Shown here: positions 4,130 to 53,935 of the stretch, piece after piece
Layout of the letters: each line of letters starts with the position of its first letter
Position numbering within the stretch: the first letter of the stretch is position 1
Assembly: GCF_036588685.1 (NCBI RefSeq)
Contig: NC_086380.1
Coordinates: 8,370,001 to 8,434,000, forward strand
Origin: Mytilus trossulus
Taxonomy: Eukaryota
Length of the DNA stretch: 64,000 nt
Reading direction: 5' to 3'
Notes under the pieces: model-generated
What the model was told of the DNA's origin: nothing
Seen by the model: the letters and a program-made list of their open reading frames with translations, nothing else
Databases searched by the model: none
Position numbers and translations under genes: made by a program

Positions 4130-4339
4130 TACTGTAAATTTGGAAATTATTGCAAGGTTGTTATAAATGTGAATAATGTGACTGAGTGAGTATTGTAATA
4201 ACTCACATTCTTATACATGTATCTGATACATATATCTGTATGCAGATTTTCCTGACATCACAATAATCAATCTTGCATTTTTGTTTATTTTCAAAAATCA
4301 CAATAATAAATTCATGCAATAATTTTGTAATTTACAGTA
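4130..4339. mobile_element. MITE with TACTGTAAATT...AATTTACAGTA termini
   Basis: Inverted termini tactgtaaatttggaaattattgca / tgcaataattttgtaatttacagta. Confidence 0.7.
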
Positions 4340-6580: not shown

Positions 6581-7305
6581 TAAAAGAAATAAAAAAAAGC
6601 CAATTCAACTGAATCACAATTTTAAGCTTTATAATCAAAATGATTGTTTAAAAAAAAGATTGTCCATAAACAGTTTCATATGTGACATTCCTAAAAATTC
6701 AGCATTAATTCTGTGAAGCCAGTAATAAACTTGGGATATTTCATTGAAACAATTTTTTACAAGTCAATTATTTACAATGATTTCTGAAAAAAAAAAATTA
6801 AGCACTTTGAACAAAGGCACTTTTATTTGAAAACGTTTATATAACTTTATACAAGTATTCGAATTTTATACCTATTATCACTTATATTTGTTTTGTTTTC
6901 TTTATATCTTCAGAACCTTTGTGTGAATGAGGTAAAACAGGTAAATCCAGACTTTTAAAAGGTGGGTTTCAACTTTCAACCCAGGAGAAAATAAAAGGAG
7001 AGTTCCAACATCCGTCCCCCTGAAACACCCCCATGGATCCATAACTGTCAAATTTTTAAGTTTTTGAATTTTCAAAAAGCTAGGTAAACTTCATGCATGT
7101 CCGACAGTTTATCAGACATTTTGTCAGGAAATAACTAACATGAATTTTAAGATGATTGTATAATAGAAACATTATTTTAGCTATTAGTACTGTGCTGCCA
7201 ATTATTCCTAATGTCACACTGGTCATGCTGGACAGCTGTCTAACCACTATTGAACACAGCTAATATTAAAACCAAAATGACCATAATCACATGATAATTG
7301 AGATT

Positions 7306-7545
7306 CTTCTGTGGCCCCACTTTCAAGAAGCACGCCGACAAAAGAAAAAGGCTTTCTTTAAGAGAGACCGGCTATTCATTGACGGGAATGAGTTTTTACC
7401 GAAAAACAACACACACGTTATGGATACAGACGAAAGACAGACGCGTTCACGCCATCCACCAAAAGACCAAGGTGCTCGACCCAAAGAATTCACCCAGCCG
7501 AAAAATCCACAACCCCGTAGAGGACCCCGAAAAGGACAGAACTAG
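7306..7545 (+). CDS. LINE ORF1 protein, C-terminal fragment (5' truncated)
   Basis: LLWPHFQEARRQKKKAFFKRDRLFIDG resembles the A-x-x-x-x-D-K/R-L-x-I-D-G end of invertebrate LINE ORF1 proteins; ends at TAG 7543-7545. Confidence 0.65.
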   Translation, partial: LLWPHFQEARRQKKKAFFKRDRLFIDGNEFLPKNNTHVMDTDERQTRSRHPPKDQGARPKEFTQPKNPQPRRGPRKGQN

Positions 7546-10500: not shown

Positions 10501-11115
10501 AGCAAATTATCATGTTTATTATATAAGCTGTTATATGTAAATCTCAATAACTATGGTTATGATAGTAAATGGATATTATATATAAAGAAAATTTTTGATG
10601 ACTGTGGAATGTCAAATATATGGCAAAGTCACAACTTATTTGAGAAACGTTGGGTTGTATTGAGTGTTCAGCAAAGATTAAGAGATCAGTTCATTCAAGA
10701 ATGGTCAACAGAAATAAACAATTCGCCCAAGGGGCTGTGTTATAGATTGTACAAAAATGTTTTTAAATTTGAACACTATTTATCAGTACTACCATTTAAT
10801 TTATTAATAACCTTATGTAAATTTAGATGTGGGAATAACCGTTTGCCCATTGAGACGGGAAGGTGGCGCAACATCCCAAGATCTGAAAGATTGTGTCACC
10901 TTTGCGCCTCAGCTGACATTGGTGATGAATACCATTATATCATGTCATGTAATTATTTCAAAGATGAAAGATGCAAATACTTACCTCATTATTGTAATAA
11001 AAATATAAATGTTATCAAATTCAAACAAGTATGTTCAACCCAAAATATTGTTGAACTTGAGAAACTTTGTAGATTTATTAAATCTATTTCTGTGAAAGTC
11101 TATCCTCCTGGTTAA
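7546..11115 (+). CDS. LINE ORF2: AP endonuclease + reverse transcriptase + C-terminal CCHC zinc finger (open from 7546; track ORF 7705-11115 starts at TTG)
   Basis: Motifs SLNVCG, LTET, GDFN, IDY, SDVH (endonuclease); YRPITLL, FVDFEKAFD, GVRQGENLSP, YADD, YLG (RT); C-x2-C...H...C finger. No stop codon over 1189 codons. Confidence 0.95.
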   Translation, partial: EYRGGLNSTVINDQCKQTSDLHSCSLPVNKDIDVQNKTIEILSLNVCGIKTKLLYPEFKSLLDNHDIFCLTETKLDDVDEIDCDNFIFHYKNRKKLANHKSGGIALGFKKYLDKYIKYIQSDCQFVLWFSIDKKVLDLPNDAIFGIIYIPPINTSYTSEDAFTEIEFELQNFCSKTNYITMLGDFNSRTGNLSDFYNTDKDSSFENNFTDYDELSDVDVLDELGIPRLRNSIDTVVNGYGRKFIDFCKNNRMFILNGRLEENKTGSPTSRNSSVIDYALSSTHFLYNICKLEVLNFCKLFSDVHSPLSLQLYTNNEIKDKLLTETFCCGDERVNKWKNEKCNEYKNNIDRNKVDDICNRLSAYVNDVKNVTKYDMNNIVTDICDTLTESAKATFGTSTFNKTMFKCSKNQCSKDWYNKDCKKAQREFRKSKRLYKHYGSNIFKERLRQSELYYKKVMDVNIKNHNTEMSKKMKEIKTKNPKEFWKLFNRGRKREKSNISLQNLFDFFKDLNKNKFENEFLIENDVNSDTVNDNLNCQITRDEILKAVKKTKNNKSPGEDQVINEYIASSLDCMVDIYVHLFNIVFDTGILPEAWLIGNVIPIFKNKGSKLDAKNYRPITLLSCLGKVFTSILNDRLGDFVENYNILNENQAGFRQGYSTTDHVFSLYTLFELLRVKKKKLFCVFVDFEKAFDFIHRNSLFFKLILNHVNGKFLRIIKNMYDDVKSRIVHNSEVSDVFACETGVRQGENLSPLLFSLYLNDLQEFLENSNIEGIQSVTKDIENELFVYFKFFLLLYADDTILLAESSHDLQCMLDKFSEYCKQWKLKININKTKIMIFSKGRIPRNLLFNIDGNEIEIVSNYKYLGIIFSRSGSFLSTRKYLRDQAIKAMYAVIKKSRLNNLSIECQLDMFDKAIVPILTYGCEIWGFENLDILERVHLRFCKHILRLKNSTPNFMVYGELGRYPISVTVKSRMINFWCRLQEGKESKLSCLLYKLLYVNLNNYGYDSKWILYIKKIFDDCGMSNIWQSHNLFEKRWVVLSVQQRLRDQFIQEWSTEINNSPKGLCYRLYKNVFKFEHYLSVLPFNLLITLCKFRCGNNRLPIETGRWRNIPRSERLCHLCASADIGDEYHYIMSCNYFKDERCKYLPHYCNKNINVIKFKQVCSTQNIVELEKLCRFIKSISVKVYPPG

Positions 11116-14639: not shown

Positions 14640-17629
14640 TCAAAATATAAAAGACAGTTTGTATGTAAATTTTGGACATGTTTGTCCATGATAATAACGA
14701 CATTTTCTTTTTGTTTCATGTGGTTTTAAGTTAAATCCTTCCTCTAAATAATCATTCTCTAGACATCTTATGAACATTTCTTCATCTGTATCACCCTCCC
14801 AAGGTCCAACTTTAATATGAGCTAGTTCCGCAACACATCCATGTTTTGGATTAAAGTTCGGAGCTTTTGCCACAAATTCAGTTTTGAACATATTAATTAT
14901 TATCTCCCCTGTTCTAGAAGTAATAGCATGATCCATTGCTATTTTCACAATATTTTGTTTTACAGCAAAATAATTCGGAAAGAGTTGTCTGTGAGCTTCT
15001 TTAACATGCATGGCGGCAATGTCAGGCTTAAATTGTAACTGCTCAACTAGTTCATGTAAGCCAAAATAGTTGGCATCTTTGAACACACTTACAGCAACCT
15101 CATTAGGTGGAATTGTTCCATTTCTTAAGAAATCTAAAATGTTAGCAAATATATGTCCATTGCTATCTAGAAAATAATTCCCATATTCATCTTTGTCAAC
15201 AATATGTCTTCCGCTAAACATGGCTGCCAGCATTGAATCTTCATATTTTCGCAATGTTGACAATCTAGTTATGTATTTAATGCCGCCAACATTTAATGGA
15301 ATCACAGGGGGAAACATCCTATCTCCATGTTCATGGTTCTTTTGAACATTCTGAAAAAAAATGTGTACGGAAATCAATGTTTTAATAGCTGTATTGAGTA
15401 TAATAGTCCACCCTTAAAAAAATAACTTCAGCAAGTTTTTGATTCCAGATACATGTACATGTAGAACAGTTACTAGAACTAATATGGAGTTTACTACTTA
15501 TAACATATTCAGCCTGGTCATGCTGGTAGATACACTTGTACCTAGAGTTTATTATTTCTCCCATACAAGTAAATGAAATTTATACCATACTGTCTTTGAA
15601 ACTTGATAAAATTATACATGTTATCCATATTTTTTTCCCATTATAAATTCAATTTCTATGAATATCTTGCATGTAGCTCATTTTTTAACATCAATCCTAC
15701 AATTATATGTAGTGGGTCCCATTGGGGTTTTAAAGTGACACAGGATTGACAATTTTTTGAAAGCGTGACACATGAAAGTCAAATTGTTGTGCCATGAAAA
15801 CAGGAAATGAAGTCCAGGGGGATAAATAATTTGGGAGATATCAATCTTTGATTTCTACTGCGATTTATTTTGGTTCACTCAGGGACATAATATTAGTATA
15901 CTTTTCTCAGACTTAATGCTTTTTTATAAAATATCAAGAAGATTACAAAAAAAAATTGTCATTCTTCAAACTTAAGTGCAGTCTTTGTAAGAATCAGGCA
16001 ATTTAGGGAAAAATCAAAACATGATCAGAAAAAACCCACCGAGCTAATCATGCTATTTAATACTAACCATCGTCCTCAAGTTAAAAATAATAGGTCTTTC
16101 TTTTGTGTGTGTCTGGTAATATCAAATAACTTGGTTAGAAAATTGGTTAGAATGATAGCAAATTATAGCAAATTACAGAGTTATCTCCCCTTATTCATTA
16201 ATTTCTAGTGCATTTCAACCAAATTGTATCTTCTTATACCAGAACAGATAATGGAAATAAATGTTATTTTTGTGCATAACTACATTTTATGAACTGAAAT
16301 CAATGTCAAATTGGGTGGGATTTTTTGGTCATGTTTTCACCACTGACTGATTCTTAGGCAGACTGGCACTTAATTGTTAAACAGTGATATTACCATGATT
16401 ACATATTTACAATGTCAACCAATTTCTGAACTTATTCTAAAAGAAAATTTTACCCGTAATCATGATTTCTTACTTAACTGTACTAGATATGCTACATGAC
16501 TCTTAAACTGGAATCTTTTATTACGCTCAGTGGCGGATGCAGATATTTTCGAAAGGGGGGGTGCAAAACATATGTCCCGATTCAAATGCATTGATCGGCC
16601 AAAATAAAGGGGGGGTGCACACCCCCGGAACCCCCCCCCCTCTGGATCCGCCACTGACGCTCCACTCAATGAACAAAGTGTAGCAGTCAGTTGAGCTTAT
16701 ATTTGAACATGACTCTATCAAATCCTGGACAATATGATAAAGCTCAGATGCATACCCAGGGGGTTGGGATGGTTAGCAAAATGGTTGGAACCTACATGTA
16801 CAGGTATCCCTTTTATTACGATCAATGAATGGGGACATATGATTTGAACCCCTTTGAAAAATTATAAAACCGCTTAAGAAGATAGGGCTTGAAAAAAGTG
16901 AACATTTTTTTTTACTAGAAACAATAATCAGCATTTTATCTTTAACTTTAAAAATATTTAAACTCAATGTTCAATCACATTGTCCATGTTGTCTAAACTC
17001 ATCAAAATACAATTAATTTAATAGATATTTTTTTCTTTTTTTTCTTTTTTTCTTTTATAGTCTTTATATTCAAGGTACATGTTGTTTGTACACATGTATT
17101 AAGATGCAATAAATTCATGAAATATATGATTTCAATTAAGAATACCCATTGGAAATTCAATTACTATTAAAATTCTTTTTATAAAGCACAATGTAACAAC
17201 ACTTATGTAAATTGTTTCTAGAAAAGTGATCAAAAGTATCATAAAAATGAAATTCAATAAAAAAACGATTTACATTATACCAGTATGAGGATAAATTATC
17301 AGATTGAATTTTCTATATATTACATCTGAATTTACCATGCTTAAAAATGTACTTTATAAAAATAATTCTAAAATACGAGTATTCACAGAATGTCTGCAGT
17401 TTTATATTTAACTGTATTAACATACCACATTATTTTCATTCATATAATTATTCCGTGTTAAGCTTAATTCAGAAATTTGTCTTGGAATTTCATGTCCCTG
17501 TGTGACAGATCTTCTGACATCTGTGTTGACGATTCTTGAGGGATGCGGTTTAGGTTGGATAGGTTTAAGTTGTATGTCTTCCATTGAGTCAGAAGACTCA
17601 CAGTCACTATTGTTCGCCACACTACTCAT
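14640..17629 (-). CDS. KCTD7: BTB/POZ domain protein, KCTD7/KCTD14-like, 2 coding exons (17629-17426, 15350-14640), ~304 aa
   Basis: FPPVIPLNVGGIKYITRLSTLRKYEDSMLAAMFSGRH...YFLDSNG..F..ILDFLR is the KCTD T1-BTB signature, closest by eye to KCTD7. ATG at 17629, donor GTG|gtatgt, acceptor tttcag|AAT, phase 0. Confidence 0.85.
16528..16656. mobile_element. hAT-like MITE (CAGTGGCGGAT TIR) with 5-bp TSD ACGCT in the KCTD intron; related degenerate copies ~22889-23015, ~25171-25297, ~31097-31184
   Basis: acgct|cagtggcggatgcag...ctggatccgccactg|acgct. Confidence 0.8.
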
Positions 17630-17873
17630 TGTAAGGCATGGCACCCATTCAAGTCCTCAAGAAAGTGAATGTTTGTTATTCCGGAATTCAATAAACAAGC
17701 ACCTGTTATTTACTGGTTCCTTGTCCAATCATAGGTTCTCACTCGCTAACTCTCAAATCGTACCAGTTTATTGACGTTCGAAGATCTCGTACTTTTTCAT
17801 CATAATATATTTGCCCAAGGAAGTAAGTTATCATTTTATGGGCGTTCTCTAGCTTTTACATAAGGATTTGATT
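17630..17873. promoter_or_regulatory. Probable bidirectional promoter/5' UTR region shared by the KCTD7-like and phosphatase genes
   Basis: Divergent ATGs only 244 bp apart; CCAATC at ~17725 and TTCCGG (ETS-like) at ~17679. Confidence 0.6.
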
Positions 17874-20800
17874 ATGGCGTCTGCAAATTCCGATAGGGTG
17901 TGTATTCACAATTGGAGAGTTCTATGTCACGGTAAATCAAAACAAGGAAATGGAAGACACGGCTCAATTTACAGGTCATCTAGGCCTGATCTTATGGACC
18001 CTCTCGACTTAGAAGAATTCAAGAAACATGGTATTAAATGCATTATTGATTTGAGATCGGATAAAGATTATGAAATAGCGTCTGGATCCAAAGTCCTCGA
18101 CAACTATTATAAGCTATACAAAGTGGTTCTACCGAAATCCAACTGTTATAAGCAACAGGAACCTGTAATTTGCCAAGCCATTGAAGGGAAAAAGAAGAAA
18201 AAGGCAAAGGGACCAGCAACCGAAATTTTGGAAAAGAAACATTTTCTTATAAATTTCTTTACTAGTGCATACACATCAACATTATTCAAAAGAGCGCCGT
18301 GGTATATTCAACTAATATCTCTTTTTATTGCAATATTTGACTTCATATTTAGAACGGGCTTTAAAAATTTCGTGCGTTTATTTGCAGTAACTGTTATAAA
18401 TCGTGCAGGGATAGCAGCTTCTTATTTAGATATTGCTGAAATGAGTAAAGGAGGAATATGTGCTGGTAAGTAATGTGTATATCGTGGAATACACAAATAT
18501 CGTTATCGTCCTCCCCATCCTCCTCCTCTTCGTCATCAGGCCTCCTCCTCATCATCGTCGTCGTCATCATCGTTATCATCGTCGTCGTCATCATCGTCAC
18601 TGTCGTTATCATCATCATCCATATCCAACTAAGTTAGACATCACGTGACTTTTGTGACGTATAATAGACGCCATCTTGTATTATATTTCCCCATATAAAA
18701 TGCATATATGCTTCAATAAAGTTTAATTTTATCATAAACCTGATCCGTTTTCTTACTTTTGCAAATCAATCCTTGATATTCAAACATATTTCTATTAAAC
18801 AATGTTGGTCCTAACAGTTTAATTTTTGATTAAATTCGGTCAAATCGGAATCGTAAAACATGCACTTTTTCTCGTCATTTCTCCGTTGACGCAATGCTAA
18901 ATTACCGATACCCATGTCTACATTTACAACAAATAAAGAAATTCTGTAAATAAAACACAAACTTTGCAAATCGATTTAGTATATTCAAACATATAGCTAG
19001 CAAGGAATACTACTTAAAACAGTTTAATTTCAGGGCAACTTCGGTCAAACATCGAATTAAAAAAGGGAATTTTCCGAAATTTTTCAAAATGGCGGCTGAT
19101 GTATCATATGAAAATGTTGCATCCAATGATTTCTATAGGAAGACTTTCCTAGATTATATTTAATTTTTTATAAAGAATCTCTGATGTTTCTGTTATTTTC
19201 TTTTAGTGATATTTCGATATCATTGATTTCAAAATTTCTTAATAAAAAAAATATTTGAAGTGTGACACGGGAACATTTATTTTGACAGATATTCATCCAG
19301 GAGATACTGTTACCAGAAAATAGTTTACAAAATCTATAATAAAAAAATCTCTTCTTTTTTTAAAGGTGTTTTGCAAGTTTTCTGTATATTTTATTTTTCT
19401 TTAGAAATATATTTATACATTCCTTTTAGAACAAAAAATAATTTCATCCTGAGAGAAGAAAAAAACCCAATGACCTATTAAAATAGATAAATATTCTATA
19501 CCTTTAAAATTTCATTCCTTGACCGAACAGGTGAAATCTAACTTGGGTTATAATGTTACATCATAATATATTGTCAGGTAGACGTGCAAACCAAAAGCAA
19601 CCAGGTGACATTCAACATCCTGTCAGTGTGTATACATGTATTACCAGAGTTTAAATTTTGTGATATACAAAAGTTTTCATAAATGTACAAATGAATATCT
19701 TCTCCTTCCCGTGTCAAATCAGAAAAAGTATGTTTTATAATAAACTTTAGGAAAATATAAATATGATAAAAATTTCTTTAAAAAACTATTTTTTGCCTAA
19801 AAGGCATTCAAATATATATATATGTTTCTATAATTATTTCAAAGAAATATTCTGATTCAAATTTTAATTCAAATGAATTTCGATCATTGCATATGATTTA
19901 GTTGTAATTTATTTTTTAATTCAATATTTAAAGATAAATCCAGGCAATGAATCGATATAAAGTTTAAATTGTGTTAAATTTTTTTTTTATTGTATACATT
20001 CCAACAGAGACTTATAATACGATTGGTCTGGTTTTAACAATATTGTATACCCGATAATATCTCTCGACAGAGTTATCGGTCCTGAATAGGACTGATATAG
20101 TTGGGTATGGTTTTCGTAATCGTCATCATTACCGTCTTCAATCATCGTGTTTATTACCATTATCATCGTAGTCGACGTCATCATCGTAATAATTATCGCC
20201 ATCGTCTTCATCATTATCGTCATCTTCACCATCATCATGACCACTCATCATTTTCAGCATCATCGCTGACATCGTATTCATCATATCAGAATTAACTTAT
20301 GCGACCAGTTTCCAATGTTTTTTTCTTCTATTTTACTTGTATTTGGAATCAGTGTAGACTTAATCATAGTGGAGGGGGAGGACAGGGGGTACCCTTCTCC
20401 CACCCCTCTTCTCCTTTCTCCTCAGTACCCCTCTTCTTATTTTTTTTTTTTTCATTTACCGGAAAAAAGAGAGATATTTTATTTTTTCATATTTTATTTT
20501 TTCCTCCAACTTTTTCTTCTTTCTCCCAGCCTTCCTCTCCTTTCTCCTACCCCCTTTCTCCCTGTCTCCCTTACCCCTGTCCTCCCCCTCATAGTGATAT
20601 TATATACATTTATTTCCCGTGTCTGAGGGAGATATGAAGATTTGTTTAACCAAGAAAAATCATATTTCACGATTGGTCCCTAAGTTGTCACACGAGAATA
20701 AGTATCATACACGACTTGGGGACGTTTCTTTGTTAAATGTAGTTTTATATGGTTTGGAGGTTCTCCATTTCGCTTAAATGATGAACTACTCCCATTTTGC

Positions 20801-23557: not shown

Positions 23558-24103
23558 TGATGTATACTGTATGTTTGCTAGAATATTTCTAGTCATTGTA
23601 TATATATATTAGTAGTATTGTAAAAGCATGTTATTACCTCCATATATGAAGTATATAAATTTTCCACTTTTTTTATCAAATGATCTCGGAGGAGGGTCAT
23701 CCCAAAACAGGGAAATATATGCCTGCAATGCATGAGGATCTGTAAAGGGGTCCTTCAATTCTGTATTCTTAAATTTTGATGCCATTTTTCTCTATTCCTG
23801 ATCTTTTTCATTATTGTTTTGGCCAATTATTTTTAATTAAAGATGACATAGAGAGGTAGCCTTTTTTCATGCCAACAAAGTGCTACCAGAATGTTCCCCC
23901 TTGGCACAGAATAGCTGATATTTATTATTACTTTGTTCCAAAATTATATATGACTGAGATATTTTGTGAAAATATTTGAGAGGTTGGATTTTCCCCCTCA
24001 CTTTTACATTATTTCCTTTTTTTTCATTGAGTTTATCATAAGATTATTTAGAGTGGTTTTATATGAAAGCCATTATAAAATTATTGCTTAAGTTATCACT
24101 TTG

Positions 24104-24871
24104 TAGCTCACCTGGCCCACAGGGCCAAGTGAGCTTTTCTCATCACTTGGCGTCCGTTGTCGTCATCGTTAACTTTTACAAAAATCTTCTCTGAAACTAC
24201 TGGGCCAAACTGAACCAAACTTGGCCACAATCGTCATTGGGGTATCTAGTTTTTAAAATGTGTGGCGTGACCCGGCCAACCAACCAAGATGGCCGCCATG
24301 GCTAAAAATAGAACATAGGGGTAAAATGCAGTTTTTGGCAAATAACTCAAAAACAAAAGCATCTAGAGCAAATCTGACTTGGGGTTAAATTGTTTATCAG
24401 GTCAAGATCTATCTGTCTACAAATTTTCAGATTCCCTGAAATTTTCAGATTAATTGGACAACCCGTTGTTGGGTTGCTGCCCCTGAACTGGTGATTTTAA
24501 GGAAATTTTGCTGCTTTTGGTTATTATCTTGAATATTATTATAGATAGAGATAAACTTTAAAATACAATTAATGTTCGCAAAGAAAGATCTATAAATAAG
24601 TCATCATGACTGAAATGGTCAGTTGACCCCTTTAGGAGTTATTGCCCTTTATAGTCAAGTTTTAACCATTTTTTCGTAAATCTTAGTTATCTTTTACAAC
24701 AATCTTCTCCTCTGAAACTGCTAGGCCAAGTTAATTATAGAGGTTCAGTTAACTAAGATGTATAAACACATCATCACCAAAACACAATTTTGTCATGAAT
24801 CCATCTGCGTCCTTTGTTTAATATTCACATATACCAAGGTGAGCGACACAGGCTCTTTAGAGCCTCTGGTT
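24104..24871 (+). mobile_element. Helentron-associated non-autonomous element (HINE/DINE-1/pearl-like); related fragments at 1-153 and ~54695-54930
   Basis: Sub-terminal inverted repeat gctcacct / aggtgagc, 5' hairpin tggccc...gggcca, cgtc-type microsatellite, 3' hairpin aggctctttagagcct, T-rich ends. Confidence 0.75.
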
Positions 24872-25752
24872 TATTTAGAGAGAAATGAAGAGAATGGTAA
24901 ATTTTATTTGTATTAAACATTACGACGATAAGGGTTCTCTACCTACATGAAACTTCAGATGCATTAGTTCATCAGTCCTTCAATTTCGACAATAGGTAAA
25001 CAAATCTTGATCACCATACAAATTACACGGTACTAATATCCTTTCTGCAACTATCTTTGGAATGCTCAATTCATACTTTTCTCAGCAGCATATTATCAGT
25101 TTTTTTTGTATTTTTTTTGTCAGAAGGCAACAAAGTGAGACGGACAAACAGATCGGTCAAACATTTACACCTAGGGGCGGATCCAGCAACCCATAGTAAA
25201 AGGGGGGGGGGGGGGTTCCAACTATGCTCCTATTCAAATACATTGTCAAAAAAGGGGAAGGGGTTCCAACACCTGGAACCCCCCTGGATCTACCAATGAT
25301 ACCTGCCATGACCATGCTATTTGTTGTGTAATTGAAACACTATATTAACCTTAATGTGATTACAAACTTAATCAAAACTTACTTGTTTATGGTTTATAAA
25401 CTTAATATAAATCCTGGTAAATGATCATGAATGTGTATTTTTATCTACTCTTAGCTCATAGATAACATACCTTGTAAATAGAATGAGCTACTAATTCAAA
25501 AGCTATTGAAACAAATCTTATATTTTTTTATTGAAATATTTGTACATTTCTTTATTTCTCCAACAATAACCTCAGATCATAGATCAGATTAGAGTCTTAA
25601 GCTTTTTTACTGTTCATGAGGTTTTGTTGTATATACCAAATTAATATGCTGTGATATTTTTTATGTTTATTATTATTTGTTTTAGGATTTTTATTGACAA
25701 AGATTGAAACTACTTATAGTCAATAAGGTTTGTTTCACCCATCTTTATATTG

Positions 25753-34500: not shown

Positions 34501-37500
34501 AAATCAACAAATGATCACAATATGTGTTCCACATACCTCACTGATATCAGCATTGACACCAAAGGCAATGTTTTCTTTGATAGAACAGGCAAATAATGTT
34601 GGTTCCTGGCTAACCATAGATATCTTCTTCCTAAACCACTGAGGATCTAACTCTTTCAAGTCATAGTCATCTTTAAATAGAATAACATATTTGTGAATGT
34701 TTTACTAATCTCAAAGTGTACCGTTTAAATAAAATAACGAATTTACAATGGATGTAGCTCAAAAATGCATTAAATTAAACAAATAGAGAATGTGTCCATG
34801 GGACAAAGATAACTATGCTGCGAGGGGCATAAAAAAAGGAATACTGTATTTATAGAAGAAGTAAAATGAAATGGTATTTTAAGATCTTCAAAATTTATAT
34901 TCCCTGTTTTTTTTTATTTCCTGAGATGCCATTTTAAATGAAAATTATGAATTCAATATGTGTATATATGTAACACTCCCAAACGTGTCCTTCCCCCCAA
35001 ACGTGTCCGATTCCCCCAAACGTGTCCGATCCCCCAAACGTGTCCGTAATTATTAAACGTTGCCCAAACGTGTCCGATTTCATAACCCCCAAACGTGTCC
35101 GATAATTGTTATTCGCCCAAACGTGTCGCATCTTTAAGCGCTAAAGTGTCTTTAATGACGTCAATAACGTTGACAGCAATTTTAAAATGGGGGACACAAT
35201 TGAAGATGTCGGGTTTCGTTTAGACTCTAAAAAAAGATCAAAACCGTTATCGAAAGACATTAATGCAGAAGTATTTTGGACACAACTACCGGAAATTAAA
35301 ACAGTGACTGAATTGAAAGAAGAAAATCCAAAATGGGGACCTAGTATTTTTTTGACAAAGAAACCAAACAGGTTTATAGAAGAAGTGAAAGTTTAAATGT
35401 TGGGCATAGAAGATGCGTTACCAAATCAGAGCTGATACAGATTATCAAGAAAAATCACGAAACAGATCACAGAAAAAATGATACCATATATGAGACAATA
35501 AGACATGCTGTTTTCCCTGTAGGAAGAGAGACTATAAAATTTTTATTTAAAAATGAAATTACCTGCACTAGCTGTAATGCAGCTGTTGAACTACCTAAAA
35601 CCACAAGGACTAGAAGGCCAATTCCTGCCACTTATCCAAACAGTAGATGGCAGATCGACTTGAAAAAAATGCCTTGTTACAAAGGATTTAATTACGTATG
35701 CAACATTTTAGACTGCTATTCTAGGTTTGCGTTCGGATGTGCCACAAAAACCAAAACAGCAAAGGAAATTGCTGACGTTGTACTTAAATATATTTACTTG
35801 TATGGTGCACCGCGTATTTTACAATCAGATAATGGCAAAGAATTTACCAATAAGGATCTAGAAGGAGTAGTTGAGGAATTTAAGTCAAAACAAATACATG
35901 GCAGGCCGTACCATCCACAGAGTCAAGGGAGAGTTGAAAGATTTAACCGGACAATGACCACATTTTTTCGTGTAAAAATGAGCACTGTAAAAGATTGGGT
36001 TGAAGAACTTCCACATTTTTATTATACCTACAACAACAGAGTTAACTCAGTTACAAAGCCGCTAACTCCTTATCAAATGTACTTCAAAAGACCAAATTTT
36101 GCAACACCGGTGGAAGAACAGGTTTGTATAATTCTGGAACTTATGTTAATGTTTTCTTTTTTTACTAAAACTTTAAAACAACTTTTATAAAAAAGTATTT
36201 ACATTTAAACACAATTTACATGTTTTAGTAATTATATATTGTAATAATGTAATACACTTTTTATTTTGTATTTAGTTTTAAACTTTTCTATATCTTAAAG
36301 ACACACAAAATATTTTTTATATCTTACACTTTAATTTTTAAAGGTGCAATTTATTTATTTTATGGAAACTATTCCTATAAAACCCATGGCTAGATAACAA
36401 TTGATTGTTGGTTGCTCAACGTTCAGTGACAAATATTACATGCATGTCTAGGACGCAAGATAGTAAACTTTAACAGTTCCCGTCATGATAGAATGATAAA
36501 CTATGATTATATATCCATTACATAAATGAAAATAGTTATAAAGTATTATAATAAAATTGTGTATATTTCAGATACCATACCAAAATTTAACTGAAGAAGA
36601 AAGATTGTTTTTAAGTAACGCCCATCTAGATGTTGACGGTGAAGAAGAAAATGAGTGTGAAAGTAGTGCAGCAAATAATAATCAAGAAAAAATTGTGGAT
36701 ACGGCAACTGACGGGTATGATGAACAGCTATCATTAGAAGGTATTCAACTTAATCCACTATTGCAATTAAATCTACTTGCTTAAATACTTTAAACTTCAA
36801 ATGATGGGATAAAACAAAATTAAAAACTAAATTATCTTAAAATGTATTGATTTCCCTTTTAGTTGTCTTCGTAAAATAAATTTTCATCTGATGTGCACGT
36901 CTTTGCAACTTTTTGTTGGTACTACATTTAATAGTTGTAAAGTAAATCATTACTGGAAGCTACTTAAAGGTAGCAAAGCATAATTATTTATATGCATACA
37001 AGTCTTTTGAAAAGTTCTTCTTGCAAAAAGGGGAACGAAACTAGTGTAAAGCGTTTAGACGGCGATTCTGTGATTTACTTTACTAAAGTGTATAAATTGT
37101 TCTTACCAATACTGAACTAACCTAACTCTTATCTACGTTTACTTAACCCTTGTCTTTATTTAATTCTTATTTAAAAATACATCCTCACGCATTTTACGCG
37201 TAACAATTTAAAAAAAAACTTCTTAAGTTAACACATACACAATAACTTCTTTTATCTTATTTATGTTAAAACTGTTAGAAAAAAAAACCTACCAAACACA
37301 AACCGTATCAAAAATTGCTGGAATCTTTAAAGGAAAAACATATTTATAAATGCCAACGATAATTAGTAAATTATAGAGTAAACTTCTAGTTTTATTGTCT
37401 GTAAAAGTAACTTATAAGTTTTTAATTTTAGAAACTTTACAACTACTAGAAGACATCGCATCGCCTACCAAGGATATAACTGAAGACCAAACCAATGAAG

Positions 37501-40500
37501 TTAACACGCAGCAAGACTGCATAATGAAAGATAAAACACCTGAAAAGAATATAGTATGTTTTCCCCGATTTTATAAACAATAATATTTTTTTTAATAACC
37601 TAACTAATAATAATGTTGTTTTTTTTGCATTTTTACTTTATTTTTAATGATCTAATTATATCTTACCATGCATAAAGCATTTCAATATTTGAACATGTTT
37701 TGGCTTAGTATTATTAAAAATGAAAACTGTTTTTGATCTATATCAGTATAAACTTCATGTATAATTTTAAATCACGCAAGAAGGAATAAAAAAAACCCAA
37801 AAGTATACTGCGGTTGTACACTTGCTTTTAGTTTTAAACTATTAAAAAGCTGATGCAGTATGCATATCAATGAAATACCTCTCCACAAGAGACCAAAATG
37901 ACACAGACATTAACAACTATAGGTTATCGTACGGCCTTCAGCAATAAGCAAAGTCCATACCGCATAGTCAGCTATAAAAAGCCCCTAAATGACTCAAACG
38001 AGAAAACTAACGGCCTTATTCATAGAACCAAATTATAAAACTAATTTGTATAGGTATAGGTATAATCAGTGCATAATGTTGATTTTAAACTAATATGTTA
38101 ATTACTAATATATTTTAGGAAATAAATTTGACAAGTGAAAACGTGCAGAGCTGCCAAGTATTATTGATAGAAGAAAAAGAAAACGAGGTACATATACAAA
38201 CTTACAGTTACCAATTTTTATTTTATGTTTAAAACATTTACTAGTTATTGTACCATTTATTATTTTAGACTAGACAGTAGAAACCTTTTTCTTGTGATAT
38301 AAATACATATCCAATAATTAAGGTGCATATAAATTCGTACAGTTTGGAATGAAATGTTATTTACACGACCAAAATGCAAATTTCGGTCATGCTACTGAAA
38401 GGGTCTTTTAACAATTTTGATATTTTTTTTTATGTTTTGCAAGGTTAACTACCCTTCATTTAGAATTTTATTTATAAAACAAATAGTTTATAAGATTTAT
38501 TATAATATAGAATAATTTTGTATATTTAAAATATGTCTAATCTGTTTTTTCAGGTGATACAAAATAACACAGCTTCTCCTTACTATAGTGAAATGTATAG
38601 AAAAAGATTTGGAAGACCCCCATCTTTAATAAGCTCAGAAAGTCCAAGCAAAAGAATTCATTTACAGGTATTTTGTTACAAAAAATATTAACGATACATG
38701 TACTTAAAAAAAAACACAACAGAAAATTGTTCAGTTGGTTTCAAATTACTCGTGTTAATATAAAAAAGAAGATGTGGTATGATTGCCAATGAGACAACTA
38801 TCCATAAAAGACCAAAATGACAAAAACATTAACAACTAAATCTGTCACCTTACGGCCTTTAACAATGAGCAAAGCCCATACCGCATAGTCAGCTATAAAA
38901 GCTGACGATAAGACAATGTAAAACAATTCAAATTAAGTTTTTATGTAAGCTCGATTGTTTGCATTACTTCAAAAATAGTTTATAAAGAATAATTTTTGTT
39001 TCAAGTAAAGTTTGCAAACACTTATTTATGATTCATTAAACAAACACTTTTTTGGTGTTTATTTTATTTTCTTAATTAATGCTAATGTTTTGTTCCATAA
39101 CATGTATTTAATTTATTTTTAACAGGAAATCAACGGAAACCAGTCCACATTTTTCAACACTGGTATCACTCAGTACTTTGATAGTGAACAAATGTATCCT
39201 GTAGAATTGTTCAGTAAAAACTCTCTAGACGATATAACGAGCTACATTTACTACAATGAAGGTGATATCGTTGATTATAGAACAAATCCTGCTATGAACA
39301 AAGGGACTGCGGTTTTTACTAGCGGTTTTTGGAGAAGAGGCTTAGTGATCAAAATAGACAAATGTCCTAGACGAGGCACGCTTTACACTGTAAAAGATGA
39401 TATTACAGACTTCTGTTTTCAGATAAATAGACACCAAATAAGAATCGCACAATAAAAATGTATTTTACTAGCAATGGTTTTACAAATTCATTTTTATATT
39501 CTTTTTTTATTTACTTTTGATTGCGTATTGTCCAGTTGCAAGTATTTCATGCATATTTAGAGCAAACAAACAAGTTGTCATGTTTTTACATTTGCTGTTT
39601 AAATCGACCCCAGACTGTAAATTGCGTATTGTACAGTTGCAAGTATTTCATGCTTATTCAGAGAGAAGATACAAGTTTCAATGTTTTTACAGTTGTAAAG
39701 GATAAATTACCGTTAAACTGTTGAATGCATATTGTCCAGTTGCCAGTATTTCATGCATATTCACAGAGAACATACCAGTTTCAATGTTTTAACAGTTGTA
39801 CTGGATAAATTACCGTTAAACTGTTGGTTGCGTATTGTCCAGTTACCAGTATTTCATGCATATTTAGAAAGAACATACCAGTTTCAATGTTTTAACAGTT
39901 GTACTGGATAAATTACCGTTAAACTGTTGGTTGTGTATTGTCCAGTTACCAGTATGTCATGCATATTTAGAAAGAACATACCAGTTTTAATGTTTTAACA
40001 TTTTTACGGAATAAATTAATTTTAGATTGTTGATTGCGTATTGTCCAGTTGCCAGTATTTCATGCATTTTTAGATAATTAAAGAGAAAAGTTGTATGGCG
40101 CATAGACAAAGGGACATTTTTAACCAGGTATCTGTACAGTTTAACTAAACATGTTTGCTTACAATTTTTAAGAATGAAACATAGCCGAAATTGCGCTCAT
40201 ACTTTTACCCAGTTTATACTAGTGGCTTAAAAAAGTACAAAATACTTTATTTATACTTTTCAGTAATGAAATGGTAAAATTAGTATACGTTAATGAGATA
40301 GCAATAACGAAATAATGGACACGTTTGGGGAATTGGACACGTTTGAGCGGTATTTGAAAAATTGGACACGTTTGGGAGTCTACAAAAATGACATGCTTTG
40401 GCGCCCTTTAGCATCTAAACAAATTTTGTTGTTCAGTGACGTCATGTGGACACGTTTGGGGGAATCGGACACGTTTGGGGGGAAGGACACGTTTCTGAGT

Positions 40501-43500
40501 GTTACATATATTACAAAACTTCCATCATACTTTCAAGGTTAGTGTTGCTCAGTCTTTAGTTTTTCATTTGTGTTTTGTGTACTGTTGTTTGTGTGTGTCT
40601 TTTTTTAGCCATGGTGTTGTCATTTATTTCCAATTATGACTTTGAATGACCCTTTTTTGCCTCTTTTTTAAGAATAATCAAGTTTGTACAAACTTAGTAT
40701 ATTACTTGGATCATAGAATCTCTCAATAATGTGGACGATGGTAGATTTACCTCCCCCTGATTGTAAAGTTAATTAAGTTTCTACATACCTAAGTATATTG
40801 TTCCTGCACTCGGATCATAAAATCTTTCAATCATGTTGACAATGGTAGATTTACCTCCCCCTGACGGTCCCACTAAAGCTACCATTTCTCCTGGTTCTAC
40901 TGTGAAGCATATACTCTAGAAATTAATAGTAAAATGTGAAGTATTATAGATATACAAACTCTACTGAGTCAAGGCTGCCTGTTGAAGATCAAACTTTGAC
41001 CTACAATTATGTTGGTTTTTTGTAATGGTGACTTGAATGCAGAGTTGTCTCATACAACATCTTAGATCTTCTTATATCTATAACCTACCGTTTGTTACAA
41101 AATGTAGCCAAACAAATAGTTGGGGAAAATTTTGAGAGAGGATAAATATTGTGATCAAATGGGTAAATTGGATGAAAGTGTTTTTCTATTTATTTCAAGG
41201 AAATGGTCAAGTACAATTATCTTAAATAATAGTAATGACATGAAATTACTCACTTCATATTTGATAAAAGTGTGGTGAATCAAAATACATAGAGATTGGT
41301 CAGAACCAGTTTTAATTCATACAGAACAAAACAATGCAATGTAAAATTTAATCTGAAAGTACTATTGAAGTACTATTTTATGCGGAAGTTACATTTAAAT
41401 ATAAATCTTGTTCAAAAATTGGAATGGGTGAACTTGTATAATTGGATGATTTGGTAATATATAATTGTACCAATAAACCAATTTTTCAAGAATGGCTGAC
41501 ATTACATTTGTATTTCCTTTCCAATCATTGAAAAGATGTTGTATTCATTTAGTTCAGAAGAAAAATAAAGAACTGAAGAAGGCCAATGGCCGAAACGTCT
41601 TGAAAAATTGGTTCATTGATACAATTTTAAAAAGTATGTTCCTTATTGGAATTTTATAAAACAATGATTTGATAATGGTCCAGTACACAACTCAGTATTT
41701 GACTCTGTCAATTACAACAAATTGTCAATGTCCACATGATTATCAAAATTTCATTTTGAGAGAACATAAAAACTAACATTACTCCTGTACTTCTGCTGAA
41801 TAATCAAAAAGTATTTACCTTTAGAACCTCTGATTCTGGTCTAGAAGGATATGTAAAACAAACATTCTTGAACTGGACTCCTAAAAAACATACACATATA
41901 GATATTTTAGTAAAGTCATTTCCAAAGGCCACAGGGATATATGTCTAGTTTTACATTAAAGAAACTTGAGTGTTGGACTGGTTATCATCACTTAAAAGAA
42001 TTGCTAAAGGCAATAGACCACTTTCCAGTTCATCTGTCACTGGAAAAAACTTGTCAATTATACGTGCCTTTAAGACGTCATTTACTAAATAGGGTTCGCC
42101 TGTATCCCTGCATTATTTACGTTCATCAAGCGTCTTAGTGATCGTCATTGGGCAGGATAAACTAGAAATAATGGTTGTTCTGTAGGTATTTAATGACAAT
42201 TCCCTAATGACAGCAATGCTGATTGTCAATTTTGAGAATTCAATTTGCCTAACAATTCATACAATATAGAATTATAGTTTTCCTACCACTCGCTCAACAT
42301 TGGAATGGAAGTGACGACGCCCCTAAACGCACAAATGACGTTCACTAAAACCAGAGTTTTTGACGGAAATACATCAAACTCGAAAGTTGTCTATTGATTT
42401 ACCATCATCTATAAAGTTTGTTTCATTGATATTATGTGAAGAAAATATTAGAAATTGATCCATATCGTACATGTAAATGATCATATCAAAATGACTGTAT
42501 AATATTGTCAACTTAATATGATGGCGACCTATAAGTGTTAATTTCTGTGTCATTTGGTCTCATGTGAAGAGTTGACTCATTGGCAATTCTATTACATCCT
42601 CTTATCTTTATAAATACATTGAGTACTGTGGATTCATTTATTTATGTTATTTATATTTTAGTGGATTATTGAAAACTTGCATGTTCGTTGACATTTAATT
42701 TTGTGGTTTTGAAGAAGTGTGCATACAAGCCTTAAGAAAATTTGTTAGTCCTTGAATATTTAATTTACATTGTTCATTTGTACAATACCCACGAAATCCA
42801 TGAAAATTGGTATCCAAGGAATAAAAATGAATCCACAGTAAGTTAGAATATCAAATGACTTACGTCCAGTAAGTTGTGCTGGTACCATTCCATTCTCATT
42901 CTGGATACCAGGTGTCCTTTCTAACAAACCAAATATTCTAGTTGATGCTCCTAAAGCCTGTAAGTCAAAAGAAATGTCTATAAACCAACTGCATTACTTT
43001 ATTGTATAAATTATGCTAACTTTTTTGTAACATAAACCTTTTATTTTGTCATTAATTCTCTTGTGGTTTTTATTAACTGGTCTCTTCTGCTTACAGAGAA
43101 TGCAATATTTGAGCAAGAATCAAGTGATTTAAAAAAATGTCAACCCATATCGGTAATTTGATTAGATGATCTATTCTTAAAACAAAAGTTGATTTCCTAA
43201 AATCACAAAAGTTGATATATGTGGCAAAAATTTACTGAATAAATGGATTAGGAATAAATAACACACTCAACAGTGACTAGAAGGCTAGAGAACAGACAAT
43301 TATGAAATACTATTGAGTTCTCAATTGCATGAATTTGGTTTTTGAATCCAGAAATTGTGAAATAATTTGGGTTTTTTTAGTGTTAAGTTTTTTAAGTAAT
43401 CACTAATACACAGTTTATCTGTAGATCTGAATTAGATTTGGGGCCTTTCAAAGATCACTATACTATATTGCTTTGGCTCATTGTTGAAGGTTGTATGTTG

Positions 43501-52019: not shown

Positions 52020-52926
52020 TTTATTGTATAGCAATATAATATTTGAAAGTAAAAATTGGTTTAAACTAAGATTTTGGCATTGCATTTTGAAGATTTATTG
52101 CACTAGTATATATATATTAAAATTGAGAATGGAAATGGGGAATGTGTCAAAGACAACAACCCGACCATAGAAAAAACAACAACAGAGGGCCACCAACAGG
52201 TCTTCAATGTAGCGAGAAATTCCCACAACCAGAGGCGTCCTTCAGCTGGCCCCTAAACAATATTAGAATTTATTGCACACTTACTTTTGGTTACTTTCTG
52301 TGGGGAATACTATATTGCTATGCAATAATATTTAATATATTTTCAAAATTATACTGTACTCTTTGCATAATGTTAATTTTGTTCAAACACAATGACTGTA
52401 CATGTACCTATTGCATCAGCACAAACTGCTAGTTATCTTCAGCATTGTGGGATTTTGTTGATCCTTTAAAGGAGAACAAGTGTTTAGAAGCTTATTGAAA
52501 TTTATTTTATTGTTTGTTCATCGTGAAATGGCAATTTTATTTCGCGTCCTTCTGTGCAGATACTTCCCTTGAGGGAGGGTAACAGAGGTCCTGATCCAGA
52601 AATCCTAGCTGGGCTTAAAAACACGAAATCCTGAGGTCCCGAAATTCGAAAAAAGAATTCCTGGATCCCGAAATTCCAAGCTTAAAAACACCCGATCCCG
52701 GAGTTCCAATAAAGGTCCTATCCCCCCTCTCCCTTTACCAGTTTATAACCCTCATCTTAATTAATGAAAACTACATTTGTAAATGCAGAATGTTTATTTT
52801 TGATGATAGACATCAATTTTTATTAAAATAAACATAGTATAGCAAACAACGAGTTCCAAGTACACACTATAACTATCTGTGCACTATCAAATAGAAATAA
52901 ACATTATGCAATCATGAATGTCAACT

Positions 52927-53935
52927 GCTGTTCCTATGTCATATTAATGACTTACCTGAAACTGTTAAATCTCAAGTCAGATTATTCGCAGATGATTGCC
53001 TACTGTATAGGAAAGTCCAAACACAACAGGACCACCAACTACTACAAAACGACCTTGTATCGTTGGAAGAATGGGCCACAAAATGGGGTATGAGATTCAA
53101 TGCCAAAAAATGTTACGTGATGAGTGTCAACAACAAATCATCTCATTTTTATAAACTGGACAATCAGATACTGCAACAGGTACAACAAAATCTGTATCTC
53201 GGTGTAATTATCTCAGATGATCTGAGGTGGGGCGCCCACATCGCTAAAACCGTGAAGAAAGCCAACTCAACTCTAGGCTTCTTGCGACGAAACCTCCGCC
53301 ACTGTCCAAAGGATTGCAGGAAACAGGCATATATAGGACTTATCCGTTCACTTTTAGAATATGCGTCCATAGTCTTGGACCCTTACTTAATGAAGGATAT
53401 TAATGCACTTGAAAAAGTACAGAGACAAGCAGTGCGTTTCATTAGTGGGGATTACACAAGCAGAGAGGAAGGTAGCATAAGGAGACTTATGATTGAACTA
53501 AAACTTCCAACACTGGAAAACAGACGTCGTCACAGTAGACTTACTTTTCTCTACAAGGTGGCCGGGGAGTTGGTACCAGCTATACCGCAAGACTCAGTAT
53601 TAGTCAAAGAGAGACCAAAACGACAAGTTAAACCAAAACAATTTAGTGACTATAAAACAACAAACATTGTAGACAAATTTGCTCAAAACAACAGCCGTTG
53701 CTTTAAAATTCCACCTAGCAAATCAGAACAATACAAACAGTCATTCTTTGTAAGAACAATACCTGATTGGAATAGACTACCAGACAATCTCGTGTGTGCT
53801 AAGACAATTGAGAGCTTTAAAACTTCGGTTGCTCTCACAACGTTGGACTAATTTTTCCAGCGCCTCTCTCCCGTTGCCATTGATGCCATATCCTGGCCCT
53901 GCAACGTATTTATTCAGATTCAGATTCAGATTCAG
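52927..53935 (+). mobile_element. 5'-truncated CR1-group LINE (RT C-terminal part, ORF to 53851) with (ATTCAG)n tail and 13-bp TSD
   Basis: LFLCHINDLPETVKSQVRLFADD...YLGV; tail ttcagattcagattcag; TSD atgaatgtcaact at 52914-52926 and 53936-53948. Confidence 0.92.

What the first reader, a model, noticed from the sequence alone, without database searches (positions are those of the whole stretch)
34969..40506. Complete intron-containing Ginger DNA transposon nested antisense in an ABC-transporter intron
Seen: TGT/ACA ends, 59-bp TIRs with only 2 mismatches, a TATA 4-bp TSD, and an HHCC-DDE integrase. The integrase continues through five further phase-consistent, stop-free exons that the ORF track shows only as fragments. 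Known: Ginger elements are cut-and-paste transposons using a gypsy-type integrase, and some carry introns; the SDNGxEF/GRPxHPQSQG motifs fit the Ginger2/Tdd-4/KRBA2 branch. Inference: a young, near-autonomous bivalve Ginger2 family with a spliced, host-gene-like transposase, probably polymorphic at this site.
Basis: partly seen in the sequence, partly recalled or inferred. Interest (0 to 1): 0.85.

Follow-up and report, generated by a model that had tools for sequence, protein, structure and literature searches.

The report
Broken intron-bearing Ginger2 transposon copy
A 5.5-kb jumping gene of the known Ginger2 type, whose enzyme gene has five introns, sits in an intron of a mussel transporter gene; this copy lacks 61 coding bases and likely moves only with enzyme from intact sister copies.

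Summary
The element is real: TGT…ACA ends at 34969/40506, 59-bp TIRs, TATA duplication and an HHCC-DD35E integrase, lying antisense in a 6118-bp intron of an ABCB transporter gene. All five introns hold up. Two sister copies give 599-aa spliced proteins identical to public gene models, and contig lengths and depths in one RNA-like run fit all five junctions. But this copy is not complete. A 61-bp deletion at 35343/35344 frameshifts exon 1 before the zinc finger, and 28 bp are missing from the 5' subterminal repeats. The family has four long copies (two with intact frames) and 170–190 exact end matches, mostly short non-autonomous elements. TSDs are 4 bp (24 of 31), mainly in RTATAY. Ends, target and domains fit Ginger2/Tdd as defined in PMC2836005, and introns in Ginger2 are already in print. 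The transposase forms its own clade (mussels to a sponge), outside both the KRBA2-like clade and Gypsy, with a predicted N-terminal helix-turn-helix and a C-terminal SH3/Tudor-type barrel on the last exon. The empty site and polymorphism were not shown. Verdict: a new, young family of a known kind, seen here as a defective copy.

The parts
34965..34968 (.). left target-site duplication TATA
   Evidence: 4-bp length fixed by three family copies outside TA runs
34969..35027 (+). left TIR, 59 bp, starts TGTAA
34981..35127 (+). seven copies of the 9-mer AAACGTGTC in the TIR and subterminal region; likely transposase binding sites (inferred)
35125..35126 (.). site of a 28-bp deletion relative to the three other long copies, between two similar short repeats
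35187..35343 (+). exon 1, 5' part: start codon and first 52 codons; after the break this frame stops at 35394-35396 (69 aa)
35343..35344 (.). site of the 61-bp frameshifting deletion; removes about codons 53-73, predicted helices 2 and 3 of the N-terminal helix-turn-helix
35344..36121 (+). exon 1, 3' part: HHCC zinc finger (35456-35575) and catalytic D (35657), D (35828), E (35936)
36572..36740 (+). exon 2 (169 nt); its start aligns with the post-core helix of foamy-virus integrase
37432..37553 (+). exon 3 (122 nt), acidic linker
38119..38187 (+). exon 4 (69 nt), acidic linker
38554..38667 (+). exon 5 (114 nt), linker with the SPYY motif shared by sister families
39126..39455 (+). exon 6 coding part (109 aa + TAA): conserved C-terminal domain, predicted SH3/Tudor-type beta-barrel
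39513..40074 (+). 103-bp tandem array, 5.5 copies, in the 3' non-coding part; related units occur in the short non-autonomous elements
40318..40494 (-). six inverted copies of the 9-mer at the right end
40448..40506 (-). right TIR, 59 bp, ends TTACA
40507..40510 (.). right target-site duplication TATA
40789..40917 (-). host ABCB transporter exon with Walker A, upstream of the host intron
   Evidence: (X16 record 17)
34534..34670 (-). next host exon, downstream of the host intron 34671-40788
   Evidence: (X16 record 17)

Best explanation
This is a recent, internally deleted copy of a mussel Ginger2/Tdd-type DNA transposon in an ABCB transporter intron, and it likely depends on transposase from intact sister copies to move. 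Shown: intact copies carry a six-exon gene for a 599-aa protein, and the family is spliced in at least one RNA-like run; this copy's frame breaks after codon 52. Predicted: the protein has an N-terminal helix-turn-helix, an HHCC zinc finger, a DD35E core, an acidic linker of about 145 aa on four small exons, and a C-terminal SH3/Tudor-type barrel. Inferred mechanism: the helix-turn-helix binds the repeated AAACGTGTC 9-mers at both ends, the integrase core cuts at the CA-3' ends, the element is excised and joined across a 4-bp stagger at the centre of an RTATAY site, and repair leaves the TATA duplication. The same enzyme would mobilise this copy and the many 0.9-2 kb non-autonomous elements. 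The antisense position in an intron likely lets the host gene splice it out.
For: Ends and TSD: (4-bp duplication in 24 of 31 two-ended copies, 5-bp in 0 of 31; RTATAY in 21 of those 24). Copies: four long copies on four contigs; 170 and 190 exact end 22-mers, controls 0. Break: the 61 and 28 bp are present in all three other long copies; contigs of X15, X16 and X1 break at 35344 and carry extra letters there. Intact frames: the C3 and C12 models are 1800 nt with one stop and are identical to public models P0408 and P0407; P0406 covers only the last 180 aa of this copy. Splicing: X15 exon-1 bins 57-67 deep against 0.9-5.4 in three intron-only bins; a 903-nt contig equals 3+169+122+69+114+426. 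Domains: rve E 3.7e-20; best solved relative PFV integrase, E 2.4e-12; barrel pLDDT 85-91 in its strands, Z about 9 to Tudor/chromo barrels, RSV integrase among Foldseek rows at E 0.05; three N-terminal helices at pLDDT above 90. Outside the RT-bearing Gypsy clade.
Against: No excision, empty site or enzyme activity was seen. The splice junctions are deduced from contig lengths, end positions and depths; none of the 15 joint rows shown is one of the five introns (387 rows hidden), X15 is only guessed to be RNA, and its exon-2 variants match the C12/C13 copies, not this one. X16 contigs over the element are unspliced, and X21 raw RNA (6% read) shows almost no depth over element exons. The helix-turn-helix rests on weak matches only (Z at most 4.9, Pfam HTH_32 E 0.13-0.2). 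The barrel has no significant sequence or profile link to any integrase C-terminal domain. No read or contig spanning this copy's deletions was shown, so they rest on the assembly alone. No labelled Tdd-4 or Repbase Ginger2 sequence was in the tree.
Confidence: 0.88

Rival explanations
1. Same element and mechanism, but it is a separate integrase-type TIR lineage that only converges on Ginger2 ends and targets, not a Ginger2 member by descent.
For: Own clade at 100/100 on a 0.93 branch, only 30-37% identical in the core to the KRBA2-like rows and 25-34% to Gypsy rows. N- and C-terminal profiles do not match the KRBA2-like proteins significantly, and their Cys-rich tail is absent.
Against: PMC2836005 reports about 30% as the lowest identity within Ginger2 and shows further Ginger2 branches (BF/NV, TDD) that I could not sample. 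The RTATAY target there comes from Nematostella elements and matches here. A joint clade with KRBA2-like proteins is not rejected (p-AU 0.234).
Confidence: 0.25
2. This copy is itself autonomous: the break is an assembly error, or is bypassed by a -1 ribosomal frameshift on the T run at 35348-35354, or by re-initiation.
For: 99.5% identical to the intact C3 copy; all later exons and splice sites are intact; a run of seven T lies at the frame change; no read spanning the deletion was shown.
Against: Two separate clean deletions 218 bp apart, each against three other copies. A frameshifted product would lack two of the three predicted N-terminal helices. The first in-frame ATG (35669) follows the first catalytic Asp. 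The public model matching this copy keeps only 180 C-terminal residues.
Confidence: 0.06
3. A domesticated integrase-derived host gene (KRBA2/SCAND3-like, as public annotations name it) that happens to be flanked by independent MITE ends.
For: Host-like exon structure; public models are named 'SCAN domain-containing protein 3-like' and 'KRAB-A domain-containing protein 2-like'; the same ends occur on many short elements.
Against: The same ends, interior and introns occur together at four unlinked loci, with TATA duplications at three of them. Pfam finds no KRAB or SCAN domain. Sister transposases carry their own different paired ends in 13 of 20 loci fetched.
Confidence: 0.02
4. A fragment of a Gypsy LTR retrotransposon or of a Polinton.
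For: Integrase fold; many Gypsy polyproteins match at E about 1e-10 to 1e-18.
Against: Inverted, not direct, ends; spliced introns; no other long ORF inside; outside the Gypsy clade. PMC2836005 says Polinton integrases lack the zinc finger and PMC6839031 gives Polintons 6-bp TSDs and AG...TC ends.
Confidence: 0.02

Closest known systems
Ginger2/Tdd DNA transposons (PMC2836005; described as intron-containing in PMC10871703)
   Same: TGTNR termini, TIR within 50-180 bp, 4-bp TSD, RTATAY target, H2C2 + DDE, no GPY/F or YPYY, no RT; size like Ginger2-1_LS, _BF and _HM (6.1-6.7 kb); short non-autonomous partners.
   Different: Forms its own clade outside the sampled KRBA2-like branch; has a predicted N-terminal helix-turn-helix and a C-terminal barrel about 145 aa past the core helix, neither mentioned in the passages I read.
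KRBA2 / SCAND3 and their invertebrate Ginger2 relatives (PMC3575427)
   Same: Same integrase core motifs (QSDNG, GRPxHPQSQG); public pipelines give these names to this family's proteins.
   Different: Not inside that clade; no KRAB or SCAN domain; no Cys-rich C-terminal tail; multi-copy and mobile-type rather than single-copy.
Ginger1 (PMC2836005)
   Same: TGTNR ends, 4-bp TSD, 1-4 introns in some families.
   Different: Ginger1 targets CCGG/CCGT and has YPYY, GPY/F and OTU or Ulp1 domains; none is present here.
TDD-4 of Dictyostelium
   Same: Integrase-type TIR transposon; six introns (recalled from its 1999 description, which was not held).
   Different: 5-bp TSD and 260-bp TIR in PMC2836005; here 4 bp and 59 bp.
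Prototype foamy virus and other retroviral integrases
   Same: Closest solved structures (E 2.4e-12, residues 85-346); HHCC, DD35E and probably the same C-terminal barrel fold.
   Different: Stand-alone spliced transposase between TIRs, with an extra N-terminal helical domain and a long acidic linker.
GingerRoot (PMC6839031)
   Same: Integrase-related TIR DNA transposon, also in marine animals.
   Different: GingerRoot has GC-rich 6-bp TSDs and 100-150 bp TIRs (the TIR range is recalled); here an AT-rich 4-bp TSD.

Membership tests
Ginger2/Tdd | Termini TGTNR | tested here: met
   TGTAA at both ends; definition
Ginger2/Tdd | TIR about 50-180 bp | tested here: met
   59 bp, 2 mismatches
Ginger2/Tdd | 4-bp TSD (5 bp in TDD-4/5) | tested here: met
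   24 of 31 two-ended copies; 5-bp 0 of 31; three copies outside TA runs (TATT, AATA, AATA) exclude 2, 3 and 6 bp. PMC6839031 gives 6 bp for Ginger2, against the 4 bp of PMC2836005.
Ginger2/Tdd | AT-rich RTATAY target | tested here: met
   21 of 24 copies with a TSD
Ginger2/Tdd | H2C2 zinc finger and DDE core | tested here: met
   H111, H115, C147, C150; D178, D235, x35, E271 in the C3 model; rve E 3.7e-20. Pfam's H2C2 models did not score, so the finger rests on spacing and on the PFV alignment.
Ginger2/Tdd | Lacks GPY/F and YPYY motifs | tested here: met
   No GP[YF] and no [YF]P[YF] in the 599-aa model
Ginger2/Tdd | Groups with named Ginger2/TDD transposases in a tree | tested here: inconclusive
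   Own clade; relation to the KRBA2-like clade unresolved, p-AU 0.234.
KRBA2/SCAND3-like branch of Ginger2 | Nested in the clade of KRBA2-like integrases | tested here: not met
   The 13-row clade (8 rows named KRBA2 or KRBA2-like by their sources) is 100/99 without the family. Mammalian KRBA2 and SCAND3 themselves were not in the tree.
Ginger1 | CCGG/CCGT TSD | tested here: not met
   0 of 24 TSDs
Ginger1 | YPYY, GPY/F and C-terminal OTU or Ulp1 domain | tested here: not met
   Motifs absent; no such Pfam hit in P0123 or exon 6
Gypsy LTR retrotransposon | LTRs and RT/RNase H; integrase in the Gypsy clade | tested here: not met
   Inverted ends, no RT ORF inside; outside the 100/98 Gypsy clade
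Polinton/Maverick | AG termini, 6-bp TSD, DNA polymerase gene, integrase without zinc finger | tested here: not met
   TGT ends, 4-bp TSD, single gene, HHCC present; definitions
Autonomous element (this copy) | Uninterrupted transposase frame | tested here: not met
   61-bp frameshift deletion
Active cut-and-paste transposon | Excision or empty orthologous site | tested here: inconclusive
   No joint across the element among the rows shown for one DNA run (most rows hidden)

The most novel reading that the evidence does not exclude
The family marks an undescribed, still active lineage of integrase-type DNA transposons, found from mussels, clams, oysters and a sea slug to a calcareous sponge, that joins an IS3/Tc1-style helix-turn-helix end-binding module to a full retroviral-type integrase (HHCC, DD35E, SH3-type barrel) and keeps gaining spliceosomal introns, one of them just before the catalytic Glu codon in a sister clade. 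The intact C3 and C12 copies would give a workable natural model for how an integrase excises a TIR element.
Probability: 0.3. Interest if true: 0.55.

Novelty: new member of a known kind. Interest (0 to 1): 0.35.

Why it matters
Ginger transposases sit between bacterial IS3/IS481 transposases and LTR integrases, and PMC2836005 treats their excision as a theoretical point. A young family with two intact, expressed-type copies and about 170-190 trans-mobilised ends is a practical candidate for a first excision and integration assay. The predicted helix-turn-helix with family-specific subterminal repeats suggests how an integrase finds TIR ends. It also shows that 'SCAND3-like' and 'KRBA2-like' gene models in mussel annotations can be transposons. 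The copy in this window is only a defective insertion, with no shown effect on the host gene.

Tried and rejected
Programmed -1 frameshift at the break: dropped once three other copies showed 61 more bases in frame. TIR identity as a clock: dropped, the two mismatches are family-wide. Empty site: not among the joints shown; X1 record 1 crosses the left junction with only 20 letters inside, under the tool's 31-letter bar, and X1 may be the assembled sample. Sequence-level link of the C-terminal barrel to known domains: no Pfam hit; one chance-level PDB hit, ribosomal L21 at E 0.44; hhalign to KRBA2-like and Gypsy C-termini not significant, E 0.21 and 0.06; atlas hits all under 0.9; 32 unnamed representatives at E up to 0.001, not followed up. 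Histone-reader function for the barrel: Tudor and chromo rows lead the fold lists, but many barrels tie within 1 Z unit and a shared fold shows no function; I did not test for an aromatic cage. N-terminal profile against KRBA2-like proteins: not significant, E 0.12; atlas hits of 0.91-0.92 to unnamed fungal, arthropod and rotifer clusters are a lead only. The first tree (80 rows) finished only as a quick tree and was replaced. The wide fold library was unavailable. Literature searches: 'Ginger2, SH3, integrase' 0 papers; 'Ginger, transposon, Mytilus' 19 papers, none on this family by title or abstract start. Repbase and Dfam could not be searched, so the family may already be named there. Earlier scan findings: none.
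Full report
1. Observation. The element runs from TGT at 34969 to ACA at 40506 (5538 bp). The first 59 bases match the reverse complement of the last 59 with mismatches at positions 11 and 12, and TATA lies on both sides. Seven copies of AAACGTGTC lie in the left end and six inverted copies in the right end. A 103-bp unit is repeated 5.5 times at 39513-40074. The flanking minus-strand exons 40789-40917 and 34534-34670 join GT-AG into an ABC nucleotide-binding domain across a 6118-bp intron, and one X16 contig joins exactly these two exons (record 17). An upstream host exon scores best against ABCB10 and also ABCB9, so the host is an ABCB transporter; I did not resolve the subfamily. Homologous proteins at 97-98% identity are labelled Mytilus by their sources.

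2. Exons. My model has exon 1 ending at 36121 and exons at 36572-36740, 37432-37553, 38119-38187, 38554-38667 and 39126-39455. All five introns (450, 691, 565, 366, 458 bp) are GT-AG, and the joined frame has no internal stop (one search was a first try with boundaries off by one or two bases). Three lines support it. First, the same model on the C3 and C12 copies gives 599-aa proteins identical to public models P0408 and P0407, and other Mytilus models repeat the junctions; such models may share ab initio biases with mine. Second, in run X15 (RNA is the tool's guess) exon-1 bins are 57-67 deep and three intron-only bins 0.9-5.4. Record 13 is 903 nt, exactly 3+169+122+69+114+426; its listed piece ends at 39122, where the end of exon 5 and the intron-5 acceptor share four letters, and exon-2 variants carry the same depth (85.1) and the matching distance to the contig end. 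Record 10 leaves the genomic path at 36118 with 30 letters left, and the intron-retaining record 11 (depth 6.5) ends at 36598, as a splice of intron 1 predicts. These are deductions: the joint table shows 15 rows, none an intron, with 387 hidden. Third, the start of exon 2 aligns with the post-core helix of foamy-virus integrase, and the intron-1 site is followed by GT in 11 of 13 sister loci tested. Against: X16 contigs over the element are unspliced, and X21 raw RNA (about 6% read) covers host exons but almost no element exon. X15's exon-2 variants are those of the C12/C13 copies, so expression of this copy is not shown.

3. The genome holds four long copies. Against all three others, the window copy lacks 28 bp at 35125/35126 and 61 bp at 35343/35344. 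The second deletion shifts the frame: from the ATG at 35187 the frame ends after 69 aa, and the first in-frame ATG after the break (35669) follows the first catalytic Asp. The public model that matches this copy's alleles keeps only the last 180 aa (P0406). Otherwise the copy differs from C3 by 24 substitutions and four 1-bp gaps, so it is recent. C3 has an intact frame; C12 has an intact frame and a 1.3-kb insert in intron 3; C13 has frameshifts and a 3-kb internal duplication. The deletions rest on the assembly; no read across them was shown.

4. Family and target. Of 38 loci examined, 31 held both ends: 4 long and 27 short (927-2028 bp). The short ones match the long element mainly at the first 170-270 bp (about 80-88%) and the last 700-900 bp (about 71-77%) in the 12 short copies whose rows were printed. 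A 4-bp duplication is present in 24 of 31, a 5-bp one in 0 of 31; 21 are TATA, and TATT, AATA and AATA fix the length at 4, which the TA run at this site cannot. The 6-bp site is RTATAY in 21 of 24. Exact left and right end 22-mers occur 170 and 190 times, controls 0. Sister transposases at 42-68% identity are common in the genome. Of 20 sister loci fetched, 13 have paired TGTAR ends, 11 of them with 4-bp duplications, each family with its own subterminal repeat. In 9 of 17 sister loci with the motif, a GT donor follows HPQSQG; in 5 the protein match resumes at the next residue 370-560 bp on, an extra intron just before the catalytic Glu.

5. Protein. The core is rve (E 3.7e-20) with H111/H115/C147/C150 and D178-D235-x35-E271, without GPY/F or YPYY. 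Residues 27-73 are predicted as three helices at pLDDT above 90, with an invariant WG. Fold matches are weak (Z at most 4.9) but mostly helix-turn-helix domains, including Pax6, Tc3 transposase and the SETMAR TIR-binding domain; Pfam HTH_32 appears at E 0.13-0.2 in 3 of 13 family proteins. The 61-bp deletion removes helices 2 and 3. Exon 6 is conserved at 34-51% in 11 sister loci and as far as sponge proteins. Its last 65 residues are predicted as a beta-barrel matching Tudor, chromo and PWWP domains at Z about 9 (rmsd 1.1-2.5 over 54-61 residues), with RSV integrase among the Foldseek rows at E 0.05; none reached E 0.001. I read it as the integrase C-terminal SH3-type domain moved out on an acidic linker (145 aa, 21% D/E). 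This is inference: profile comparisons with KRBA2-like and Gypsy C-termini were not significant.

6. Mechanism. Inferred from the anatomy and from established integrase chemistry: the spliced transposase binds the subterminal 9-mers through its helix-turn-helix, the DDE core cuts at the terminal CA, the element is excised and inserted across a 4-bp stagger in RTATAY, and repair duplicates TATA. Conserved outer ends with family-specific inner repeats fit a split between catalytic and binding sites. This copy keeps both ends and would be moved in trans. No step of transposition was observed.

7. Comparison. PMC2836005 (read: parts 1-2 of 5, further passages, supplement S2; the FAS supplements S1 and S3, which hold the reference alignments, were unreadable and bear on placement) defines Ginger2 by TGTNR ends, 50-180 bp TIRs, 4-bp TSDs, RTATAY, H2C2 + DDE and no GPY/F or YPYY. 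All are met. It lists 1-4 introns for Ginger1; PMC10871703 (passages) calls Ginger2 intron-containing and reports (AT/TA)n targeting; six introns in TDD-4 is my recollection, the paper was not held. PMC10294476 (passages) already counts 98 Ginger elements in molluscs. PMC3575427 (parts 1-2 of 3) derives KRBA2/SCAND3 from insect-like Ginger2. PMC6839031 and PMC12863088 were seen as passages. In my 43-row tree, chosen from the search hits, the family (9 rows) is one clade at 100/100, separate from a KRBA2-like clade (13 rows, 100/99) and RT-bearing Gypsy (13 rows, 100/98), with the backbone open; holding family and KRBA2-like rows together is not rejected (p-AU 0.234). So it works like Ginger2 and passes every sequence-level test, but it is not in the KRBA2 branch, and descent from named Ginger2 elements is untested. 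It may belong with the BF/NV branch seen in supplement S2.

8. Verdict. A real, young, intron-containing Ginger2-type family, probably unnamed in the papers searched, seen here as a defective copy. Interest 0.35; new member of a known kind. The most novel reading, a distinct lineage with HTH plus full integrase architecture, has probability 0.3 and would deserve 0.55.

Noticed in passing
window 7270-11115 (+): Non-LTR retrotransposon with an open 1189-aa endonuclease + reverse transcriptase frame and a short upstream ORF; looks intact.
   Followed up: partly
window 14640-15413 (-): Single-frame KCTD/BTB-domain gene (BTB_2 + KCTD_C).
   Followed up: partly
window 17853-18473 (+): Exon of a tyrosine-phosphatase family protein (Y_phosphatase3).
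   Followed up: partly
window 52901-53851 (+): 5'-truncated LINE fragment, end of RT plus C-terminus.
   Followed up: partly
window 37840-37990 and 38759-38930 (introns 3 and 5), 36400-36460 (intron 1): Fragments of very high-copy host repeats inside the element's introns (X1 summed depth up to millions; pairs D5 and D9): the transposon's introns collect repeats as host introns do.
   Followed up: partly
L033 (C12 copy) about 3826-5126; window 24100-24874: The 1.3-kb insert in intron 3 of the C12 copy matches a repeat in the window at 79-83%.
   Followed up: partly
L114, L116, L117, L119, L122: Sister clade with an extra phase-1 intron inside the [11 protein letters not shown] catalytic motif; a lineage-specific intron gain or loss in a transposase.
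   Followed up: partly
G000:C6:6775560-6781880: Two identical-scoring sister elements head to head, forming a large inverted duplication.
   Followed up: no
P0146: A public Mytilus edulis model fuses this family's exons with fibrinogen C-terminal domain exons; either a gene-prediction chimera or exon capture.
   Followed up: no
window 40704-40864: 57-bp direct repeat (89%) that duplicates part of the host Walker A exon into the neighbouring intron (D8).
   Followed up: no
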